This document shows, in pieces, positions 316 through 38,928 of a stretch of DNA of 55,185 nt; within the stretch, counting starts at the first letter, position 1, and every line of letters begins with the position of its first letter. The stretch is from Patescibacteria group bacterium (GTDB taxonomy: Bacteria; Patescibacteriota; WWE3; JAMCXX01): the NCBI GenBank assembly GCA_023474425.1, contig JAMCXX010000004.1, positions 1 through 55,185 of the forward strand, written 5' to 3'. The notes under the pieces were generated by a model that searched no databases, was not told the origin of the DNA, and worked only from the letters and a program-made list of their open reading frames with translations. A program made the position numbers and the translations under genes.

Positions 316-492
316 GGGAACCGCCGAATTTCGGCGGGAATTCTTTTGGCGGAATTCAAAACCCCTTGGAATTTCTTGGCGGAAACCAATGCCGAGGGGC
401 GAAGCCCCGAGGCAATTTCTTCGGCAAATTCGAAATGGTGGTGTTTGTTTGAAAAAGTCAGAACCCATTTTGCGGAAAATCCCAATGAATGA
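316..492 (+). pseudogene. Orphan coding fragment, probably the C-terminal tail of a CPR-type large serine recombinase
   Basis: Reads GNRRISAGILLAEFKTPWNFLAETNAE...KWWCLFEKVRTHFAENPNE* with no convincing start or RBS. It resembles recombinase C-termini as I recall them (inference). Confidence 0.5.
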
Positions 493-641
493 AATGGAAA
501 CAATGCGGACTCGGCGGGGCAAACTATTTTTCTGGGGGAATGGAATTGCCCCGCCTCGGCTTCCTTCCCGCCCGCAGGAGGGGTCTGGGGAGGAATGCGG
601 GCGGGTTTTTGAACCTTTCCTTTTTCGCTTCCAAATTTCGT
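436..641 (+). repeat. 206-bp inverted repeat, left copy
   Basis: TGGTGGTGTTTG...CCAAATTTCGT is the reverse complement of 2828-3033. Shadow-ORF translations across the two copies are identical. Confidence 0.97.
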
Positions 642-2827: not shown

Positions 2828-3033
2828 ACGAAATTTGGAAGCGAAAAAGGAAAGGTTCAAAAACCCGCCCGCATTCCTCCCCAGACCCCTCCTGCGGGCG
2901 GGAAGGAAGCCGAGGCGGGGCAATTCCATTCCCCCAGAAAAATAGTTTGCCCCGCCGAGTCCGCATTGTTTCCATTTCATTCATTGGGATTTTCCGCAAA
3001 ATGGGTTCTGACTTTTTCAAACAAACACCACCA
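2828..3033 (-). repeat. 206-bp inverted repeat, right copy (its covarying terminal hairpin extends to 2805)
   Basis: Reverse complement of 436-641. Its outer end lies 9 bp from the pgk stop codon. Confidence 0.97.
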
Positions 3034-6964: not shown

Positions 6965-8752
6965 CTAGTGTTCCCAAAAATCTGACGCCTTAACATCCAC
7001 CTCCACCTTAACCTTCTTTAAAAGTTGTCGGCCGGCATTAACCATTTCTTCACTAATCACTTTGGTCATGGCCGCAACATCGCTTTCCTTTGCTTCGGTC
7101 ACGATTTCGTCGTGCACCGTGTGGGTAATATAGGCATCCAAACCTTCTTTTTTAATTCTATCATAGATGTTAATAAGGGCATATTTAGTTATATCGGCAC
7201 TGCTACCCTGAATCGGCGTATTCTTACCCTGGCGTTCGATGTTGGCCAAAAGTCTTTCGTAATTGGGGTCGCCTTTATCGGGCATAATATACCAACGTTT
7301 GCGGCCGCTTAGAGTCTGGCTGTATCCGTCCTTAACCGCCTGCTTGCCGGCTTTATCTAACCAAGCTTTAACCCCCTCATAAGCTTTAAAATACTTATCC
7401 AGAAGAACCCGTGCTTCGTCCGGGCCCACACCAATCTGGGCGCCTATAGAGGCGGCTCCCCGCCCGTACATAAGACCAAAATTTATGGTCTTGGCTGCCG
7501 TTCTCATTTTTTTATCCACCTGTTCTTCCTTAACGTTGTACATGTTAACGGCAGTTTTCATATGCAAATCCTCACCTTTATCGAACGCGCCCAAAAAGAC
7601 TTTGTCGCCGGAAAGCTCGGCCATAATCCGCAGTTCAATTTGAGAGTAGTCGGCCACCACAAGTTTGTAGCCCTCGGCCGGAATAAAGCAGCCGCGAAAC
7701 GACGAGTCCTGGGGAATCTGCTGCAAATTGGGGTTGCTGCAGGCGAAACGGCCGGTGTCAGCACCGATCTGCATAAAATCCGGGTGAATCCGCTTGGTCT
7801 TTTTGTGAATTTTTTCCAAAAAATTTTCCCCGAAGGCGGTAATCAATTTTTCCGCTTCCCGGTATTGCAGCATAAGCTGGGCTACTGGGTGGTTAACTTT
7901 GCGTAAAACGGCCTCTCCGGTGGAGGGCAGGTCGATACCCAGTTTTCTAAAGGCTTCAACGATTTGAATTGGCGAATTTAGATTAAGGACTTTGTCGCTT
8001 GAGCCAAAAAGATCAACCTGCTGAATTTTATAGTAAGGTTTAAGTTCGCGCTGAATCTGTACCACAATTTCGTCGCGCCGCGCCTTTAGGGCTTCAATAT
8101 TTTGATGCCATTTTTTAACGTCAATGCGCGTGCCCCGAAGCTCCATTTCGGCTACCACCGGCAGAAGCCTAAATTCCAGCTTGGAAACCTCAATGAGTTT
8201 CTGTTTTTTTATTTCCTCGAACTGTTTTTTAAAAATCGGAAAAAGAACCAAAACATCCAAGGCCGCATACTTAAGATGCTTTTGGGTTATACGGCCGGTT
8301 AAACCCACCTCCTGCCAGTTATAATTTTCGTAGTCTTTATCGAGGGTTATGTTTAAATATTTTTTGGCAATAGCCCCTAAGGAATTCTCGCGAATGAGAC
8401 CCGTGGTCAAAATTCTTTCGGCCAACATTGTGTCATAGATGTTGTTAATGCTAAAACCTTTCGAAGCTTTAAGGGCCTCATAATCAAATTTACCGTTTTG
8501 CAGAAGTTTAAGAATTCTTTCGTCGAGCAGTATTTCTTTAAGCGGCGTAAGGTCGAGTTTTCCGTTAAAAACATAGGCCTTGTCCTCGGTGCCGATCTGA
8601 AGTAAAAGTACCTTTAAGGTGTAGGGATCCAGTGCGTCGGCTTCCAAATCCACGGCCAAAACTGCCTCGCGGGAAAGAACTGCCGCGGTCTTGTTAAGCT
8701 CTTCCTGCGTTTCGATGTATTCAAAATTTGGGTTCTTTATATCAATGGGCAT
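6965..8752 (-). CDS. polA: Family A DNA polymerase (3'-5' exonuclease plus polymerase; no 5'-3' nuclease domain)
   Basis: Exo motifs DLE, NGKFD and YAALD. Pol motifs DYSQIELR, KTINFGLMYG and HDE. Confidence 0.9.
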   Translation of the reverse strand: MPIDIKNPNFEYIETQEELNKTAAVLSREAVLAVDLEADALDPYTLKVLLLQIGTEDKAYVFNGKLDLTPLKEILLDERILKLLQNGKFDYEALKASKGFSINNIYDTMLAERILTTGLIRENSLGAIAKKYLNITLDKDYENYNWQEVGLTGRITQKHLKYAALDVLVLFPIFKKQFEEIKKQKLIEVSKLEFRLLPVVAEMELRGTRIDVKKWHQNIEALKARRDEIVVQIQRELKPYYKIQQVDLFGSSDKVLNLNSPIQIVEAFRKLGIDLPSTGEAVLRKVNHPVAQLMLQYREAEKLITAFGENFLEKIHKKTKRIHPDFMQIGADTGRFACSNPNLQQIPQDSSFRGCFIPAEGYKLVVADYSQIELRIMAELSGDKVFLGAFDKGEDLHMKTAVNMYNVKEEQVDKKMRTAAKTINFGLMYGRGAASIGAQIGVGPDEARVLLDKYFKAYEGVKAWLDKAGKQAVKDGYSQTLSGRKRWYIMPDKGDPNYERLLANIERQGKNTPIQGSSADITKYALINIYDRIKKEGLDAYITHTVHDEIVTEAKESDVAAMTKVISEEMVNAGRQLLKKVKVEVDVKASDFWEH

Positions 8753-8820
8753 AAGAAACTTATACGGAACTTAATAGAGAATAGACCCTCCTTAAAAAAA
8801 TTTAAAGGGAAAAATCTATT

Positions 8821-10395
8821 TTACTTGAGGAGGTCTTTAAGGACGGAAGCGGCTAACTGCGGTTCGGCCCGGCCGCGCGAGATTTTCATTACCTGACCTA
8901 CCAAAAACTGCAGACTTTCCTTCTTGCCGTTTTGGTACTCCGAAACTGCCCGCTCGTTTTGTTCGACAGCTTCCCGGCAAACCTCGGCCAACTCCTCATG
9001 TTTCAGCGTTTCCTGCTCCTTTTCTTGAACCAGTTTTTGAACCAGATCTTTAGGATTTAAGTTCGCGAAGTCAAGCCTTTTGTTAACCAGGACACCGGAC
9101 AGTTTAGACACGGGATAATCTTTCTGCAGAGCTTCCGCAGCGGCCGTCTCAAAATAAGCGGCCAAGTTTTTATTCTCTACAATTATTACGGCCTCCGTCT
9201 CCTTAATCGACCAGTCTCTAATGTATCTCACAACTTTTGCCTCAGGCAATTCGGGGATTTGAGATTTGAGATTTGAGATTTGAGATTTCGTAAAGTGCAT
9301 TGGGGGAACGTCAGGCTCGGGAAAATAGCGGTAGTCGTGGGCTTCTTCTTTGCTCCTTTGAAGCACCGTCATTTTTTTGGCTTCGTTATACCCCATCGTG
9401 GCCTTATTACCGGCCTTTTTCTGCTCGCGCGTCTTTAGGAATTCTTCGGACTGTCTTTTTATTTCGTATTCCAAAGCCTGCTTAACAAATTTGAAAGAAT
9501 TAATGTTCTTAATTTCAACTAACGGGGTATAAGAAACTTCCTTCCTCTTCCAATAATTCTGCCCTTCGTCCGTCATTCTGGCTTGGGCGCTCAGCACCCC
9601 TTGTCCAGAATCGATGCTGGACCTGCCTGCCGGCAAGGCAGGATCCCCCGGCATGACACCCTCTGAGGTTATCTCACTCCGACTCAACGAAACAGATTCC
9701 GTGACCTTCAAATTAATGGTTGGCTCCAGTCTCATTGACCCCTTTTCCATGTCCGCATCAGAAATACCCAGGTATCTCACAATCAACTGAAGTTTCTTAA
9801 GATAATCAACAACTTCTTCGGTTGACTTAAAGTCCGGTTCGGTCACAATTTCCACCAGCGGCACCCCACTGCGGTTAAAATCCACTAAAGATACGTCTTT
9901 AGGGCCTTGGTAATTGGGTATTTGGTCGGAGTGCAAAAGTTTCCCTGTATCCTCCTCCATATGCACGCGGTTAATTCGAATAGTTTTACCTCTACCCTGC
10001 CCTTCGTCATGCTGGGCGACTCCAGCATCTGCCCCTTTAGATTCTGGAGTCCTTGCCCTGCTCGTCCCTAGAATGACGATTGAGCCATTCACGCAGAATG
10101 GTTTGGCATACTGACTAATCTGGTACCCTTTTGGTAAATCCGGGTAAAAGTAGTTCTTCCTCTCAAAGTACGAATCTTCGTTTACCCGGCAGTTGAGGGC
10201 TAATCCTAACATTATGCACCATTCAACCGCCTTTTTATTGGGCACTGGCAGGGCTCCCGGCAACCCTAAACAGACCGGGCAGGTGTTGGAATTAGGTTCT
10301 CTGCCAAAGTGGTCGGCCGGGCAGCCGCAAAACATTTTGCTTTTTGTTTTTAGTTCCACGTGGACTTCCAGTCCGATAATCGGTTCAAACTGCAT
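8821..10395 (-). CDS. gatB: Asp/Glu-tRNA amidotransferase subunit B, with in-frame repeat insertions
   Basis: IGLEVHVEL, RKNYFYPDLPKGYQISQ, MEEDTGK, DFNRSGVPLVEIV, DYRYFPEPD. Start set at MQFEP. Confidence 0.97.
   Translation of the reverse strand: MQFEPIIGLEVHVELKTKSKMFCGCPADHFGREPNSNTCPVCLGLPGALPVPNKKAVEWCIMLGLALNCRVNEDSYFERKNYFYPDLPKGYQISQYAKPFCVNGSIVILGTSRARTPESKGADAGVAQHDEGQGRGKTIRINRVHMEEDTGKLLHSDQIPNYQGPKDVSLVDFNRSGVPLVEIVTEPDFKSTEEVVDYLKKLQLIVRYLGISDADMEKGSMRLEPTINLKVTESVSLSRSEITSEGVMPGDPALPAGRSSIDSGQGVLSAQARMTDEGQNYWKRKEVSYTPLVEIKNINSFKFVKQALEYEIKRQSEEFLKTREQKKAGNKATMGYNEAKKMTVLQRSKEEAHDYRYFPEPDVPPMHFTKSQISNLKSQIPELPEAKVVRYIRDWSIKETEAVIIVENKNLAAYFETAAAEALQKDYPVSKLSGVLVNKRLDFANLNPKDLVQKLVQEKEQETLKHEELAEVCREAVEQNERAVSEYQNGKKESLQFLVGQVMKISRGRAEPQLAASVLKDLLK
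9254..9288. repeat. Heptamer tandem repeat (GAGATTT)x4 plus one variant copy, inside gatB
   Basis: Read directly from the sequence; encodes KSQISNLKSQIP. Confidence 0.9.
9572..9657. repeat. GTCAT...ATGAC palindromic element in frame in gatB, with a nested CCTGCCTGCCGGCAAGGCAGG palindrome (9622-9642)
   Basis: Terminal inverted repeats and internal stems. It translates as part of the non-GatB peptide VMPGDPALPAGRSSIDSGQGVLSAQARMT. Confidence 0.85.
10004..10079. repeat. TCGTCAT...ATGACGA palindromic element in frame in gatB
   Basis: 7-bp terminal inverted repeat and an internal GACTCCAG/CTGGAGTC stem. Encodes IVILGTSRARTPESKGADAGVAQHDE. Confidence 0.85.
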
Positions 10396-10417
10396 AATTT
10401 TAACTGACTCCAACTAA

Positions 10418-10450
10418 CGTCATCCTGAGGTCTACGACCCGAAGGATCTA
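10418..10450. repeat. Truncated CGTCATCCTGAG...GAAGGATCT REP-like element
   Basis: Same signature as 39622 and 40634; overlaps the gatA stop codon. Confidence 0.7.
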
Positions 10451-11836
10451 ACCATTCGGCCTTTCCTTATGCCACTCAGTTGATTGTTCATAATGGTAAG
10501 CCACCCGCAAAACCAATTCCTCCGAAAGCTTGGGACCTATTAGGTCTAAACCCACCGGCATTCCTTCACTAAAACCACACGGGACGGAAATACCTGCCAG
10601 ACCGGCAATGGAACTCGGCTCCACCAAAACGTCCGCCATTTCCCCAAACATTGACTGCCCCCGGCTTACTCCCACCGGCAACGCTATCGTCGGCGAAACC
10701 GGGCCAGCTATGAGGTCGACTTCGGAAAAAGCCCGGTTAAAATCATTAATAATTAAAGTCCTTACTTTTTCCGCCGTTTTGTAGTAGGCGTCATAGTATC
10801 CGGCCGAAAGGGCGTAAGTTCCTAGCATAATCCGCCTTTTGGCCTCCGGACCAAACGCTTCGCGCCCTTCTCCATACCGTATTCCGTCATATCTGGCCAA
10901 GTTACTGGAAACCTCACTACGTTGAATAATAGTGTAAACGGCAATGGAATATTTGGGATCCAGTAGGGAAATCTCTTTAACCAAGCAACCCAGCGTCTCC
11001 AGTTGCTTTACAGCCTCCATAACCTTTTGGGAAACTCCGTTTTCTACCCCTTCAAAATATTCCTTCGGCACTCCAATTTTTAATCCGCCGACGGAATCAT
11101 TGAGCCGGGCGGTATAATCGGGAACTTCGTCCGGCAAAGACGTGGCGTCATAAACATCGTGGCCGGCTAAAATGCTTAAGAGAAATGCCGCATCCCAAAC
11201 TGTTTTGGTAATCGGGCCGGGGCTGTCGGTGGACGAAGCCATAGCCACAATTCCGTAGCGCGAAACACGCCCGTAACTGGGCTTAAACCCAACCACCCCG
11301 CACCAGCCGGCAGGCTGGCGAATGGAACCGGCCGTTTCCGTGCCCACCGCCGCCAAGCACAAGTCGGCGGCTACGGCCGCCGCCGACCCGCCGGAGGATC
11401 CGCCCGGCAAACGCGTCAAATCCCAGGGATTTAAGGTCGGACCAAAGTCCGATGTTTCCGTGGACGAGCCGTGGGCCCAGGCGTCCATATTAGTTTTCCC
11501 CAACAAAAACGCCCCGGCTCTAATTAGCTTTTCCGCGATCGTGGCGTTGTATTGAGGTTTATAATCCTTCAAAACGCTGGAAGATGCGGTTGTTTTAAAA
11601 TCTTTGGTGAGAATGTTGTCCTTTAGAGCTAGAGGTAAGTCCTTTAATACCGAGTCACTACGCGGTTCAATACTGTTAATTTCGTCTAAGCTTACTGAAC
11701 TTAAATAAGCACGAACTTTAGAATCTCTTTGCGAAATGGCCGCAAGGCAGTCCACCACAACATCTCGGCCGCTAAATTCTCCATTGGTTATTCCTTCCAA
11801 TGCCTCTTTTAGTGTAAGATTATTAAGACCCGTCAT
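10448..11836 (-). CDS. gatA: Asp/Glu-tRNA amidotransferase subunit A
   Basis: Amidase signature GGSSGGSAAAVAA, TETAGSIRQPA and RRIMLGTY.LSAGYYDAYY. Confidence 0.97.
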   Translation of the reverse strand: MTGLNNLTLKEALEGITNGEFSGRDVVVDCLAAISQRDSKVRAYLSSVSLDEINSIEPRSDSVLKDLPLALKDNILTKDFKTTASSSVLKDYKPQYNATIAEKLIRAGAFLLGKTNMDAWAHGSSTETSDFGPTLNPWDLTRLPGGSSGGSAAAVAADLCLAAVGTETAGSIRQPAGWCGVVGFKPSYGRVSRYGIVAMASSTDSPGPITKTVWDAAFLLSILAGHDVYDATSLPDEVPDYTARLNDSVGGLKIGVPKEYFEGVENGVSQKVMEAVKQLETLGCLVKEISLLDPKYSIAVYTIIQRSEVSSNLARYDGIRYGEGREAFGPEAKRRIMLGTYALSAGYYDAYYKTAEKVRTLIINDFNRAFSEVDLIAGPVSPTIALPVGVSRGQSMFGEMADVLVEPSSIAGLAGISVPCGFSEGMPVGLDLIGPKLSEELVLRVAYHYEQSTEWHKERPNG

Positions 11837-12135
11837 CCCAGTATCCTTTTAACCACAAAATATCCGCCATGCGTATTCTTGCAATTAGAAAGCGCCTCTT
11901 TTTGAGGAAGTATTCTTTTTGAATCAATCACATCCTCCCTAAAAATATCTCTTAACCCCGAAATCTGACTCGTTTCGCTCAAGTTTTTTATTTTTAAATT
12001 AAGCTTTGACAAAATATTAATATGGGAAATTGTGTCGGAAAGTTCCACGGCAAGTTTCCCTGTCTCTTCATCCGACAAAGGGAGTTTTGCCAAATCGGCG
12101 ATGTGTTTTACTTCTTCTTTGGAAATTTCAGTCAT
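11833..12135 (-). CDS. gatC: Asp/Glu-tRNA amidotransferase subunit C
   Basis: ISKEEVKHIADLAKL...FREDV...GYFVV; lies directly upstream of gatA. Confidence 0.92.
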   Translation of the reverse strand: MTEISKEEVKHIADLAKLPLSDEETGKLAVELSDTISHINILSKLNLKIKNLSETSQISGLRDIFREDVIDSKRILPQKEALSNCKNTHGGYFVVKRILG

Positions 12136-12530: not shown

Positions 12531-12636
12531 GTTAGGGCGCAGTGTTGGTTTTGCAGCGAGCGTTGAGGGGGAGCCGTCAGTCCGCAGACTGAGGGAGGAC
12601 TCCTTGAGCGAGTCGCAAAACTGACACGAGCCCGAC
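12531..12636. repeat. Intergenic copy of a ~100-bp hairpin element
   Basis: Long imperfect stem-loop whose core is nearly identical to the in-frame element in dinB (37979-38081). Confidence 0.9.
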
Positions 12637-17741: not shown

Positions 17742-17890
17742 AAGTTGTAAAATCAAATCGGCTGTAATGTAATGGCGGAGACCAATTTTAACAGCAGTAA
17801 TAAGCGGGATGTGGGGGTCGAGTAGATACTGTTTGATATACTCGCCCTGGCTAAATAGGTCCGAGCCAATTACGTTATCCGGCTCCATAT
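17742..17890 (-). pseudogene. Orphan gene tail, copy 1 (…GSDLFSQGEYIKQYLLDP…KIGLRHYIT…LILQL)
   Basis: Direct repeat of 19197-19350. The 43-bp core at 17818-17860 differs from 19279-19321 at one base. Confidence 0.65.
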
Positions 17891-18019
17891 GAGAACGGTT
17901 TTGGCGCGGTTCAAAATCTCCCCTTAAAATCAAGTTTTCCCCGAGTTCGAGCCAAATTTTTTAGCAAAATTGTCTTAGCCTGGAAAAATTAGTTACTGGT
18001 GACGAGAGTCGGACCTATT

Positions 18020-19106: not shown

Positions 19107-19350
19107 TTACCACTTTTTGCCGTCTTTTCTATATTTGCCGAAAACTTCAAAAAATAGAAATGGGTTAACTTTCTCCAAGTAGCCTTTAAAAACAGTAAGT
19201 TGTAAAATCAACTCAGACTGATCTGTAATGTAATATCGAAGACCGATTTTAATTTTAGAGATTAGAGATAAATCGGGATCGAGTAGATACTGTTTGATAT
19301 ACTCGTCCTGGCTAAATAGGTTTGAGCTGAGTACCGTCCCAAGCTCTAAT
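19107..19350 (-). pseudogene. Orphan gene tail, copy 2 (…SSNLFSQDEYIKQYLLDP…KIGLRYYIT…LILQL…KKW*)
   Basis: Manual translation gives an open frame of about 80 aa with no ATG, paralogous to 17742-17890. Confidence 0.65.
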
Positions 19351-19366
19351 TGAATGAAAAGTTGTT

Positions 19367-20737: not shown

Positions 20738-20795
20738 CTCCGAACACCTGTTCGGGATCCGGGACTACAGATTCCGGGTCAGGCCCGGAATGACG
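20738..20795. repeat. REP-like element ending TTCCGGG-TCAGG-CCCGGAATGACG
   Basis: Two hairpins and the ATGACG terminus shared by the family. Confidence 0.7.
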
Positions 20796-37621: not shown

Positions 37622-38928
37622 AGTCCCACGAATTTAATTGTTCCCCTTCAAACGTCATGCACATTGATTTGAATAGCTGCTTTGCTTCAATAGAGCAGCA
37701 GGCCAATCCAACGCTTCGCGGCATTCCTACCGTCGTGGCCGCCTACCCCACCGGCGGTGGCTGTGTGCTGGCGGCCAGCATTGAAGCCAAAAAACTGGGT
37801 ATAAAAACAGGCTGGCGTGTCAGGGACGCACAAAAAGTCTGCCCGCAAGTAGCCGTTCTTATCCCAGACCCGGCCAAATACCGCCACGTCCACAAAGAAA
37901 TGATGAAAATATTCGAAGCCTACTGCGGCAATGTTACCCCCAAAAGCATTGACGAGGCTGTTCTCACATTTGGAAAGCCCGAGCGGAGGGCATGGTTTGC
38001 AGCGAACGTTGAGGGGGAGCCGTCAGTATTCGGTCTGACGGAGGACTCCTTGAGTGAGTCGCAAACTATGCCCGAGCTCGGAAACATAGGAAAACAAATC
38101 AAAAAAGACATTAAGGAAAAAATTGGGGAATGGCTTACTGTTAGCATCGGCATAGGACCAAACAGGTTTATGGCCAAAACGGCCGCCGGACTTCAAAAAC
38201 CCGACGGTCTCGAAGAAATAAACTTTATGAACGTGGATAGAATATTTAGCGGCCTGAAGGTTGAGGACCTTTGTGGCATTAATGTTGCCCTTAAGTCCCG
38301 CCTCAATGCTGCCGGAATTTATTCGGCTTTAGAATTCCTCAACGCTAACCGCTACACGCTAAACGCTGTTTTTCGCTCCATCTCTTCCTACCACTGGTAC
38401 ATGCGTTTAAGAGGGTTCGAAGTTGACAACTGGTCTACGGAGAGAAAAAGCATTGGGCATTCCTATGCTTTGCCCAAAGCCACAAACGACGAAAGAGAGC
38501 TCGGTAAAATACTTTTTAGGCTTTGCGAAAAGGTCGGTCTGCGCTTACGCAATAATAACCTGGAAGCCCAAGGAGTTTACCTTTTCTGCTCCTACAAGGG
38601 TAGAACCTGTTTTCACAAAAGTCATAAACTTCACCAGAAGATATTTACCACCCCGGAAATCTACCAACAGGGTTTGCGGATTTTGAGCGAGAGTCTCAAG
38701 ATGGTTAACTCTATTGGAACCCTCGCCGTCGGGGTTTTTGACCTATCTCAATCCCTATACCAACAACAAACCTTCTTCGAAGACCAAGACAAAAAAAGGC
38801 ACCTAGCCCAAACGCTAGACAAGATTAATAACAAGTACGGTAATTTTTCTGTGTCTTTCGGCACCACTTTTGGCCTGTCCAAGAAAATCCTGGACCGCAT
38901 TGCCTTCGGCGGAATTAGAGATATGTAA
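37594..38928 (+). CDS. dinB: Y-family DNA polymerase IV with an in-frame hairpin insertion
   Basis: HIDLNSCFASIEQ, AASIEAKKLG, SIDEA, SIGIGPNRFMAKTA...KPDG. Confidence 0.94.
   Translation: MATEPNLQLKSHEFNCSPSNVMHIDLNSCFASIEQQANPTLRGIPTVVAAYPTGGGCVLAASIEAKKLGIKTGWRVRDAQKVCPQVAVLIPDPAKYRHVHKEMMKIFEAYCGNVTPKSIDEAVLTFGKPERRAWFAANVEGEPSVFGLTEDSLSESQTMPELGNIGKQIKKDIKEKIGEWLTVSIGIGPNRFMAKTAAGLQKPDGLEEINFMNVDRIFSGLKVEDLCGINVALKSRLNAAGIYSALEFLNANRYTLNAVFRSISSYHWYMRLRGFEVDNWSTERKSIGHSYALPKATNDERELGKILFRLCEKVGLRLRNNNLEAQGVYLFCSYKGRTCFHKSHKLHQKIFTTPEIYQQGLRILSESLKMVNSIGTLAVGVFDLSQSLYQQQTFFEDQDKKRHLAQTLDKINNKYGNFSVSFGTTFGLSKKILDRIAFGGIRDM
37979..38081. repeat. ~100-bp hairpin element inserted in frame in dinB
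   Basis: CCGAGC..GGGCATGGTTTGC...GCAAACTATGCCC..GCTCGG stem; the core is shared with 12531-12636. Confidence 0.9.

What the first reader, a model, noticed from the sequence alone, without database searches (positions are those of the whole stretch)
9540..10080. Two palindromic repeat elements translated in frame inside GatB, one of them nested
Seen: GTCAT...ATGAC elements at 9572-9657 and 10004-10079 sit in an uninterrupted gatB frame and add non-GatB peptides. The first contains a second palindrome (CCTGCCTGCCGGCAAGGCAGG, 'PALPAGR'). Both share the flank CTGCCCTTCGTC (9559-9570 and 9997-10008, 'DEGQ'). Related elements are intergenic elsewhere in the window. Known: Rickettsia palindromic elements insert in frame into surface loops of proteins. 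Inference: an analogous route to new peptide segments operates in this lineage.
Basis: partly seen in the sequence, partly recalled or inferred. Interest (0 to 1): 0.72.

Follow-up and report, generated by a model that had tools for sequence, protein, structure and literature searches.

The report
Hairpin repeats translated inside GatB
Two small hairpin-forming DNA repeats of a known selfish kind (the family that includes some Rickettsia palindromic elements and the Neisseria NTS repeats) sit in frame in two floppy loops of the essential GatB enzyme of a tiny-genome Microgenomates bacterium, so this is a real but not new kind of event, seen here in a new phylum and a new host gene.

Summary
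gatB (8821-10395, minus strand, 524 aa) carries two extra segments that 17 of 17 aligned relatives lack. Each holds a pair of inverted hairpin units of the form CGTC-AT-stem-loop-stem-AT-C.

The units belong to a dispersed family: 28 strict matches in this 681-kb genome against 0 for the reversed pattern, found in 12 of 41 related genomes. By their features they are CGTC-tagged REPs (Di Nocera 2013; this class includes Rickettsia RPE-4/-6 and Neisseria dRS3). These are also called Ssn-related motifs, the hairpins that flank small Ssn GIY-YIG single-strand nucleases (Chenal 2025).

This genome has two such nuclease genes, each bracketed by the hairpins. One bracket has the same outer scaffold as a gatB unit.

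Both inserts lie between beta strands and are the only low-confidence parts of an AlphaFold model. uvrB (twice), a clpB-like gene and lspA carry in-frame copies too.

Among 120 GatB homologues, 38 show peptide signatures of such units in the same two loops.

Translation is inferred, not shown. The verdict is a new member of a known kind. The scan had already noted the same elements in other genes of this genome.

The parts
8821..10395 (-). gatB coding sequence (524 aa from the ATG at 10395); gatA lies upstream at 10448-11836 and gatC at 11833-12135
   Evidence: ORF list; Pfam GatB_N and GatB_Yqey; solved GatB chains, E 2e-103
9544..9693 (-). Extra segment at loop site 2: residues 235-284 (50 aa, VSLSR...NYWKR). 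It is absent from the closest homologues, which have 14 aa where this protein has 64.
   Evidence: Alignments; AlphaFold pLDDT below 50 for residues 238-284, between strands 221-231 and 292-296
9571..9658 (.). Element 1: an inverted pair of tagged hairpin units with the tags outward. Unit A is 9571-9612 (+) and unit B is 9614-9658 (-, tag variant TGTC). It encodes residues 247-275 (VMPGD...ARMT).
   Evidence: Pattern matches C4:9572-9611(+) and 9614-9657(-). Unit A is 95% identical over 42 nt to C2:219857-219898. Its outer scaffold is identical to the hairpin downstream of the GIY-YIG gene at C1:2537-2577.
9622..9642 (.). Nested 21-nt palindrome in the loop of unit B. It belongs to a second mini-repeat family.
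   Evidence: Three more copies with at most 2 substitutions, at C1:52056, C3:62835 and C4:203315. Each lies inside a long open frame (1003, 701 and 877 aa) and is read as LPAGK.
10005..10078 (.). Element 2 at loop site 1: unit A at 10005-10029 (+) and a degenerate unit B at 10041-10078 (-). GTCAT...ATGAC spans 72 nt and encodes residues 107-130 (VILGTS...AQHD).
   Evidence: Pattern match C4:10006-10028; fold z -6.2; pLDDT below 50 for residues 112-133, between strands 101-108 and 137-149; 33 aa here against 11 in homologue P0002
9559..9570 (.). 12-mer CTGCCCTTCGTC next to the tag of element 1. The same 12-mer is at 9997-10008, where it overlaps the tag of element 2. In element 1 it creates a doubled tag (CGTC-CGTC).
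   Evidence: Exact 12-nt match; sequence. The TTCGTC part recurs at other copies; the CTGCCC part is shared only by these two.
10418..10448 (+). Single tagged unit (CGTC-ATCCT...AGGAT-C) in the 52-nt gatA-gatB spacer
   Evidence: Sequence; not caught by the strict pattern because its stem differs
20771..20795 (-). Single tagged unit between two co-directional ORFs
   Evidence: Pattern match; ORF list

Best explanation
The two gatB inserts are gene-less pairs of CGTC-tagged hairpin repeats. This class is called CGTC REPs, and also Ssn-related motifs; it includes Rickettsia RPE-4/-6 and Neisseria dRS3/NTS. Each unit has an unpaired CGTC (or TGTC) tag, a stem that starts with AT, a variable loop that may hold a further small hairpin, and a C after the stem. 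In the same genome the same kind of hairpin brackets two small GIY-YIG nuclease genes of the Ssn type. For that enzyme family, cutting of single-stranded DNA a few bases upstream of the hairpin has been shown in vitro in other species. The pairs in gatB therefore look like non-autonomous relatives of a hairpin-nuclease-hairpin unit. They landed in, or were copied into, two loops between beta strands of the GatB cradle domain. They stayed because they keep the frame, carry no stop codon and lie where extra residues are tolerated. They are most likely translated as disordered surface loops of 24 and about 50 extra residues. Shown here: the anatomy of the elements, family membership by features, empty sites in relatives, loop location in a model, the link to the nuclease genes, and in-frame copies in other genes. 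Inferred: translation, tolerance by the enzyme, and that the nuclease or any other enzyme spreads the repeats.
For: Family and copy number. There are 28 strict matches in G000 against 0 for the reversed pattern. 12 of 41 related genomes have matches, up to 127 in G009. The matches fall in 19 loci in G000.

Features of CGTC REPs as printed in PMC3733652: a CGTC or TGTC tag, a stem starting with AT, and dimers. All are seen in the sequence.

Empty sites. All 40 relatives have gatB, mostly with open frames of 380-480 aa against 530 here. None of the 17 aligned relatives has these segments. Homologue P0002 (67% identity in the alignment) is empty at both sites.

Independent hit. G009 gatB holds one unit of that genome's own type at another codon of loop 1, at L003:1827-1850.

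Recurrence. 34 of 120 homologues at site 1, 11 of 120 at site 2 and 38 of 120 at either site show start-and-end peptide signatures of translated units. Only 4 of 1289 control windows elsewhere in the same proteins do (alignment, one search counts).

Structure. Mean pLDDT is 79.8, and the only segments below 50 are residues 112-133 and 238-284.

Nuclease link. Of 14 Ssn-like GIY-YIG ORFs collected, 12 have at least one outward-tagged hairpin within 130 nt and 8 have one on both sides. Of 63 other GIY-YIG ORFs, 1 has one. Across many phyla, 67 of 80 loci have at least one and 35 of 80 have both, against 0 and 2 in the reversed controls. This matches the published 71% and 42% (PMC11893778).

Other in-frame hosts. 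uvrB has two extra segments relative to solved UvrB. A clpB-like gene has 40 residues where T. thermophilus ClpB has 12. lspA carries units too.

The gene is probably needed. There is one gatB match in the genome, no GlnRS-type domain was found, and asnS scores below its cut-off (the genome is 83.6% complete).

Not an assembly artefact. Contigs from two runs cover 9300-10300 with 0 differences, and a third covers 9467-9661. These runs may be the source samples.
Against: No RNA or protein data exist, so translation is an inference. Element 1 is not more stable than shuffles (z -1.4), and its recognisable pair (88 nt) explains only part of the 150-nt extra segment. The 36 and 27 nt beside it have no assigned origin. 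No clean target-site duplication was found. The published degenerate SRM search sequence does not match either gatB element: it matches 2 places in G000, and the reversed control also gives 2. Membership in the SRM class therefore rests on features and on the nuclease link, not on the published pattern. Loops in this family are much more variable (5 to 26 nt) than the 4-5 nt given for CGTC REPs. Mobility of Ssn-hairpin units has not been shown by anyone; the paper offers it as a hypothesis. The relatives in my counts are kin and not independent.
Confidence: 0.85

Rival explanations
1. The inserts are not translated. They would be removed from the RNA like an intron, or skipped by the ribosome as in translational bypassing, so GatB protein would lack them.
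For: GC-rich hairpin inserts in coding sequence are bypassed in some systems (recalled, not from a call). No expression data are available here: no RNA run holds the stretch.
Against: Both inserts keep the frame and have no stop codon in the gatB frame, which bypass or splicing would not require. No Rfam family, intron or other, matches 8700-10500 at E up to 1. The same holds for the in-frame copies in uvrB, clpB-like and lspA. In 38 of 120 homologues the corresponding segments are open in frame too. The 2013 paper cites in vivo expression of RPE-1-decorated Rickettsia proteins.
Confidence: 0.05
2. The segments are ordinary lineage-specific loop extensions of GatB, and their palindromy is incidental. 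They are not derived from mobile repeats.
For: The two loops vary in length in many GatBs: 3-44 aa at site 1 and 10-70 aa at site 2 among 120 homologues. Some relatives have long inserts with no recognisable unit, for example L008 and L009.
Against: Unit A of element 1 is 95% identical over 42 nt to an intergenic copy on another contig. The strict pattern occurs 28 times in the genome against 0 for its control. Element 2 folds at z -6.2. The nested 21-mer recurs three more times.
Confidence: 0.03
3. The elements are REPINs spread by a RAYT (Y1/HUH) transposase, as for GTAG-tagged REPs.
For: The architecture is the same in general: two inverted hairpin units with a short unpaired tag. Y1_Tnp matches occur in 27 of 41 related genomes.
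Against: The tag is CGTC, not GTAG. There is no PF01797 match in G000. G012 has 44 units and no Y1 match, while G003, G006, G008 and G018 have several Y1 matches and 0-1 units. The 2013 paper found no RAYT flanked by CGTC units. The hairpins flank GIY-YIG genes instead.
Confidence: 0.03
4. This gatB is a decaying or non-functional copy, or the inserts are an assembly artefact caused by repeats.
For: The genome is a metagenome-assembled draft (5 contigs, 83.6% complete), and repeats can mislead assemblers.
Against: The 524-aa frame is intact and all catalytic-domain blocks align to solved GatB. The gene sits in a gatC-gatA-gatB operon. It is the only gatB match in the genome. Identical contigs come from two runs and a partial one from a third, and no variant allele was seen.
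Confidence: 0.03

Closest known systems
CGTC-tagged REPs (Di Nocera, De Gregorio, Rocco 2013, BMC Genomics 14:522, PMC3733652; abstract, sections 6, 14, 15 and found passages read). The class includes Rickettsia conorii RPE-4/RPE-6 and Neisseria dRS3.
   Same: Both have an unpaired CGTC/TGTC tag, a stem beginning with AT, a short tail, frequent inverted dimers and dispersed multi-copy distribution. In both, copies occur inside genes, where dimers encode 20-30 aa. uvrB is hit twice in R. conorii and twice here.
   Different: The paper lists 5 phyla and none is a candidate-phyla-radiation lineage. gatB and amidotransferase do not occur in its main text; its supplementary list of host genes was not seen. 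Here the stems are 7-8 bp, and the loops are highly variable and often hold a second small hairpin.
Ssn-related motifs (SRM) / Neisseria NTS with Ssn GIY-YIG single-strand nucleases (Chenal et al. 2025, Nat Commun 16:2388, PMC11893778; abstract, section 8 and found passages read)
   Same: The hairpin has GTC upstream and C downstream. The same hairpins bracket about 95-aa single-domain GIY-YIG genes (2 in this genome), and gene-less copies are scattered through the genome.
   Different: The published degenerate search sequence misses these units. In-frame copies in genes do not appear in the passages I read. Nuclease activity of this genome's enzymes is untested, and assignment to cd10448 could not be checked.
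Rickettsia palindromic element RPE-1 (Ogata et al. 2000; known to me from memory and as cited in PMC3733652)
   Same: It is palindromic repeat DNA inserted in frame into essential genes and translated as extra surface segments.
   Different: RPE-1 is longer (over 100 bp) and is a different sequence family. It is treated apart from the CGTC units in the 2013 paper.
REPIN/RAYT systems (Bertels and Rainey 2011, PMC3116915; search listing and abstract only)
   Same: Inverted doublets of a tagged hairpin act as the repeated unit, with a single-copy enzyme gene flanked by the same hairpins.
   Different: There the tag is GTAG and the enzyme is a Y1/HUH transposase. Here the tag is CGTC and the enzyme is a GIY-YIG nuclease.

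Membership tests
CGTC-tagged REP superfamily | Unpaired CGTC (or TGTC/CCTC) tag at one end of the hairpin | tested here: met
   Element 1 has CGTC at 9571-9574 and GACA (the TGTC variant) at 9655-9658. Element 2 has CGTC at 10005-10008 and GACG at 10075-10078. Most of the 19 genomic loci show cGTC or tGTC.
CGTC-tagged REP superfamily | Stem of 8-9 bp whose first two pairs are A-T and T-A; loop of 4-5 nt | tested here: inconclusive
   The AT start is met in all units. Stems are 7-8 bp. Loops run from 5 nt (GTCATTCTGGCTTGTCCAGAAT) to about 26 nt with inner hairpins, so the loop criterion is not met by most copies.
CGTC-tagged REP superfamily | Dispersed, multi-copy, often as inverted dimers | tested here: met
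   28 strict matches against 0 for the control. 7 of 19 loci hold two units in inverted orientation.
Ssn-related motif (SRM) with Ssn nuclease | Match to the published degenerate SRM search sequence | tested here: not met
   Neither gatB element matches. There are 2 matches in G000 and 2 in the reversed control.
Ssn-related motif (SRM) with Ssn nuclease | GTC just upstream and C just downstream of the palindrome (the bases found critical for cutting and binding by SsnA) | tested here: met
   GTC-ATTCTGG...CCAGAAT-C at 9572-9612 and GTC-ATGCTGG...CCAGCAT-C at 10006-10029; criteria from PMC11893778 section 8
Ssn-related motif (SRM) with Ssn nuclease | The same hairpins flank a small single-domain GIY-YIG (Ssn-type) gene | tested here: met
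   G000 C1:2578-2868(-) and C2:165669-165956(+) are 96 and 95 aa, match PF01541, and each is bracketed by outward-tagged units. The unit at C1:2537-2577 shares its outer 14+12 nt with gatB unit A.
Ssn-related motif (SRM) with Ssn nuclease | The protein belongs to CDD cd10448 and cuts single-stranded DNA next to its hairpin | not testable with these tools
   No CDD library is on hand. NCBIfam gives only weak sub-threshold hits. There is no biochemistry.
In-frame palindromic elements of the Rickettsia kind | Inserted in frame in a conserved protein, at a surface loop, with insert-free orthologues | tested here: met
   empty sites; the loops between strands are the only low-confidence segments. 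This rests on a model, not a solved structure.
In-frame palindromic elements of the Rickettsia kind | The insert is present in mRNA and protein | not testable with these tools
   No RNA run holds the stretch.
REPIN/RAYT | GTAG tag and an associated Y1 (RAYT) transposase | tested here: not met
   The tag is CGTC. There are 0 PF01797 matches in G000.

The most novel reading that the evidence does not exclude
The same two GatB loops are occupied in many Microgenomates by different hairpin variants, and the 5' boundary falls within one or two codons (the tag GTC-ATT supplies the V-I that ends the beta strand). This could mean that the units insert at a preferred target and are not merely filtered by selection. 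An alternative is that one ancient insert is continually overwritten by each genome's own unit type through gene conversion. Either reading would be natural evidence that Ssn-hairpin units are active, targeted genome editors in candidate-phyla-radiation bacteria, and that they act as a steady source of new loop peptides in essential enzymes.
Probability: 0.15. Interest if true: 0.65.

Novelty: new member of a known kind. Interest (0 to 1): 0.38.

Why it matters
The finding extends a known class of selfish hairpin repeats to the candidate phyla radiation and to a new essential host gene. It shows that even 0.7-Mb genomes tolerate such DNA inside core enzymes: gatB, uvrB, a clpB-like gene and lspA. 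It also shows that the published search pattern for these motifs misses whole variants. The repeated use of the same two GatB loops offers a natural test set for two questions: whether these repeats have target preference, and how much extra peptide an essential enzyme can carry. For annotation, it explains odd low-complexity peptides such as VILG...ARMT and VIPS...QND in CPR proteins.

Tried and rejected
1. RNA evidence: no RNA holder was listed for 9300-10300.

2. Empty-site alleles in reads: the three joints (9531>9833, 9864>10118, 9867>10107) come from contigs 85-90% alike on short sides of 35-39 nt. They are other organisms' gatB genes, not excision products.

3. Rfam: no match at E up to 1.

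4. RAYT/Y1 transposase: none in G000, and no relation to repeat counts in 41 genomes.

5. Published SRM regular expression: no better than its control in this genome.

6. NCBIfam naming of the small GIY-YIG proteins: only sub-threshold hits to a group I intron endonuclease model.

7. Before reading Chenal 2025 I treated the link between the GIY-YIG genes and the hairpins as possibly new. It is a rediscovery.

8. Target-site duplication: none is convincing. The doubled CGTC at element 1 and the shared 12-mer are noted but not explained.

9. Frame-neutral length of the elements: this cannot be stated, because the element boundaries are ambiguous. GTCAT..ATGAC is 72 nt in element 2 and 86 nt in element 1, and the whole extra segment at site 2 is 150 nt.

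10. First try of the search for related loci with the 11-sequence alignment failed for lack of a conserved stretch. A 4-sequence alignment worked.

11. Papers on CPR or Patescibacteria with in-frame palindromic repeats: searches listed none. This shows only that none was listed there.
Full report
**What is there**

The window is the first 55 kb of contig C4 of a 681-kb, five-contig genome of about 46% G+C. On the minus strand lies a gatC-gatA-gatB operon. gatB runs from 10395 to 8821 and encodes 524 aa. It matches Pfam GatB_N (E 9e-104) and GatB_Yqey, and solved GatB chains (3al0_B, E 2e-103). The alignments to solved GatBs break twice, at about residues 111-131 and 235-291. Names attached to the best protein homologues place the organism in the Microgenomates group of the candidate phyla radiation: Gottesman-, Levy- and Shapirobacteria.

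**The observation**

- The 21-nt palindrome is at 9622-9642.
- The 12-mer CTGCCCTTCGTC occurs at 9559-9570 and 9997-10008.
- Further copies lie in the gatA-gatB spacer (10418-10448) and between two ORFs at 20771-20795.

**Anatomy**

Each element is a pair of inverted hairpin units with the tags outward. A unit reads CGTC (or TGTC), then AT-NCYGG, a loop, CCRG-N-AT, then C.

- Element 1 has unit A at 9571-9612 (+) and unit B at 9614-9658 (-).
- Element 2 has unit A at 10005-10029 (+) and a degenerate unit B at 10041-10078 (-).
- As single strands, element 2 folds far better than shuffles (z -6.2 and -5.7; 0 of 200 shuffles as good), mostly as one long hairpin.
- Element 1 does not fold better than shuffles (z -1.4 and -0.8). 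Two gatB control stretches give z +1.5 and +0.4. Element 1 is therefore a decayed copy.
- Unit A of element 1 is 95% identical over 42 nt to an intergenic copy at C2:219857-219898. In that copy the inner stem is perfect.

**A real repeat family**

- The strict pattern GTCATNCYGG-N(3-33)-CCRGNAT matches 28 times in this genome, and its reversed control matches 0 times.
- Among 41 genomes of the class (this one included), 12 have matches. Counts reach 127 (G009), 45 (G002), 44 (G012) and 31 (G001). Controls are 0 everywhere except 1 each in two genomes.
- In G000 the tagged units fall in 19 loci.
- A looser detector gives 50 hits against 6 in reversed sequence.
- Loops are modular. The same outer scaffold (GTCATTCTGGCTTG ... 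CTTGTCCAGAAT) occurs bare and with different 15-nt inner hairpins.
- The loop of unit B in element 1 holds the 21-nt palindrome, which is a family of its own. Three more copies (at most 2 substitutions) lie at C1:52056, C3:62835 and C4:203315. Each sits inside a long open frame (1003, 701 and 877 aa) and is read LPAGK in the same frame as in GatB.

**Empty sites**

- All 40 relatives have gatB, mostly with open frames of 380-480 aa against 530 here.
- None of the 17 relatives I could align has the two segments.
- In the protein database the best hit is 59% identical by BLASTP.
- P0002 (67% in the MAFFT alignment) is empty at both sites.
- Among 120 homologues, loop 1 is 3-44 aa long (median 18; 33 here) and loop 2 is 10-70 aa (median 18.5; 64 here). 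The commonest empty forms are 7-12 and 14 aa.
- At site 2 the extra segment is exactly 50 residues (235-284; nt 9544-9693). The recognisable pair encodes residues 247-275. The 36 and 27 nt on either side have no assigned origin.
- At site 1 the element encodes residues 107-130.

**Recurrence in GatB**

Translated units leave recognisable ends: V-I/M-x, R-H-S or S-F-x at the tag, and x-N/H/D-D or x-M-T at the inverted tag.

- A start-then-end signature occurs in loop 1 of 34 of 120 homologues, in loop 2 of 11 of 120, and in either loop of 38 of 120.
- Only 4 of 1289 control windows of 33 aa elsewhere in the same proteins show it (alignment, one search counts).
- The peptides imply several different stem types in different lineages. 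Their 5' ends fall within one or two codons of each other.
- At DNA level, G009 gatB holds a single unit of that genome's own dominant type at a different codon of loop 1 and in the other orientation (L003:1827-1850, peptide FRVKPGMT). That is an independent event.
- Whether the recurrence reflects permissive loops, a preferred target, or overwriting of an old insert is open.

**Structure**

An AlphaFold2 model built with a 23-sequence alignment has mean pLDDT 79.8 and pTM 0.73. Its only segments below pLDDT 50 are residues 112-133 and 238-284. Each lies between two strands (101-108/137-149 and 221-231/292-296). I did not place the loops relative to GatA or the tRNA.

**Other host genes**

- uvrB (C5:16024-18243) has two extra segments (query residues 160-204 and 441-478) relative to solved UvrB, at the positions of units.
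- A clpB-like gene has 40 residues where T. thermophilus ClpB has 12. These include VMLGALSINSDSGQARMT.
- An lspA frame (PF01252) holds three units.
- By the strict census, 5 of 19 loci are in frame inside recognised genes. A sixth, the second uvrB insert, is found only by the looser detector.

**What it belongs to**

The features match the CGTC-tagged REP superfamily of Di Nocera et al. 2013. That class has a CGTC/TGTC tag, stems that almost always begin with AT, dimers, and copies inside genes where dimers encode 20-30 aa. Hosts are often repair genes, with uvrB hit twice in R. conorii. The class includes RPE-4, RPE-6 and dRS3. The paper stated that these repeats seem to lack a dedicated transposase.

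I found that small GIY-YIG genes of one clade are bracketed by these hairpins.

- In G000 there are two, at C1:2578-2868 and C2:165669-165956.
- Among 77 distinct GIY-YIG ORFs from G000 and the related genomes sampled, 12 of 14 in that clade have an outward-tagged hairpin within 130 nt and 8 of 14 have one on both sides. Only 1 of 63 in other clades has one.
- The two clade members scored as misses show degenerate units by eye.
- In 80 loci from many phyla, 67 have at least one outward-tagged hairpin and 35 have both. Reversed controls give 0 and 2.

This association is published as the Ssn nuclease family and its Ssn-related motifs, with 71% and 42% of homologues flanked on one and both sides. 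SsnA binds the hairpin only as single-stranded DNA and cuts a few bases upstream. The GTC before the palindrome and the C after it are the critical bases, and both are present in the gatB units. My result is therefore a rediscovery that agrees with the paper. The published degenerate search sequence, however, does not find the units of this genome (2 matches against 2 in the control).

**Mechanism and its limits**

Shown: the elements are members of a dispersed hairpin family, they are absent from orthologues, they lie in predicted loops, and they share their scaffold with the hairpins that bracket an Ssn-like gene in the same genome.

Inferred:
- That they are translated. They are in frame and free of stops, like the copies in other genes. 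No Rfam family matches. gatB is single-copy. No GlnRS-type domain was found and asnS scores below its cut-off, in a genome that is 83.6% complete.
- That the loops are tolerated by the enzyme.
- That the Ssn-like nucleases, or some other route such as recombination between copies, spread them.

No Y1 transposase is present in G000, and Y1 counts do not follow repeat counts. The assembly is sound. Contigs of two runs match 9300-10300 without a difference, and a third matches 9467-9661. All are from one study and may be the source.

**Verdict**

The kind is known: in-frame CGTC REPs since 2000-2013, and their nuclease partner since 2025. This scan has already noted the same elements in lspA and gyrB of this genome.

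New here are:
- the phylum;
- the host gene;
- the hairpin variant missed by the published pattern;
- the nesting of a second mini-palindrome;
- the repeated occupation of the same two GatB loops across Microgenomates.

Noticed in passing
window 9260-9295: A seven-base tandem repeat (GATTTGA, about 4.7 copies) lies in frame inside gatB and encodes KSQISNLKSQI. Several homologues have nearly the same peptide there, with no length change. Many GatB homologues also carry K/N/Q-rich, heptamer-like peptides in the two variable loops.
   Followed up: partly
G000 C1:52056-52076, C3:62835-62855, C4:203315-203335: Three further copies of the 21-nt palindrome nested in gatB. Each lies inside a long open frame (1003, 701 and 877 aa), is read as LPAGK, and is flanked by seven-base tandem repeats.
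   Followed up: partly
G000 C5:16024-18243; C2:260918-263158; C3:45604-46191: uvrB carries two in-frame hairpin inserts, a clpB-like gene carries one, and lspA carries a cluster of three units.
   Followed up: partly
G000 C2:97339-97722 and loci L030, L032, L033, L040, L052, L053, L055, L056: Small GIY-YIG genes of other clades sit next to or inside tRNA genes, with a duplicated 5' part of the tRNA. They are flanked by different short palindromes, not by CGTC-tagged hairpins.
   Followed up: partly
window 436-641 and 2828-3033: A perfect 206-nt inverted repeat with 2186 nt between the arms. It could be an invertible or mobile segment, or an assembly feature near the contig end.
   Followed up: no
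window 12537-12634 and 37983-38080: Two copies (79% alike) of a 98-nt GC-rich repeat with internal complementarity. This is a different family from the gatB elements.
   Followed up: no
window 17762-17892 and 19223-19353: A 131-nt direct repeat, 75% alike, 1461 nt apart.
   Followed up: no
L046 (G009:C8) 1440-1830: In the genome richest in repeats (127 units), the Ssn-like gene is bracketed by the very two unit types that make up that genome's repeats. The inverted similarity extends about 40 nt beyond the hairpins.
   Followed up: partly
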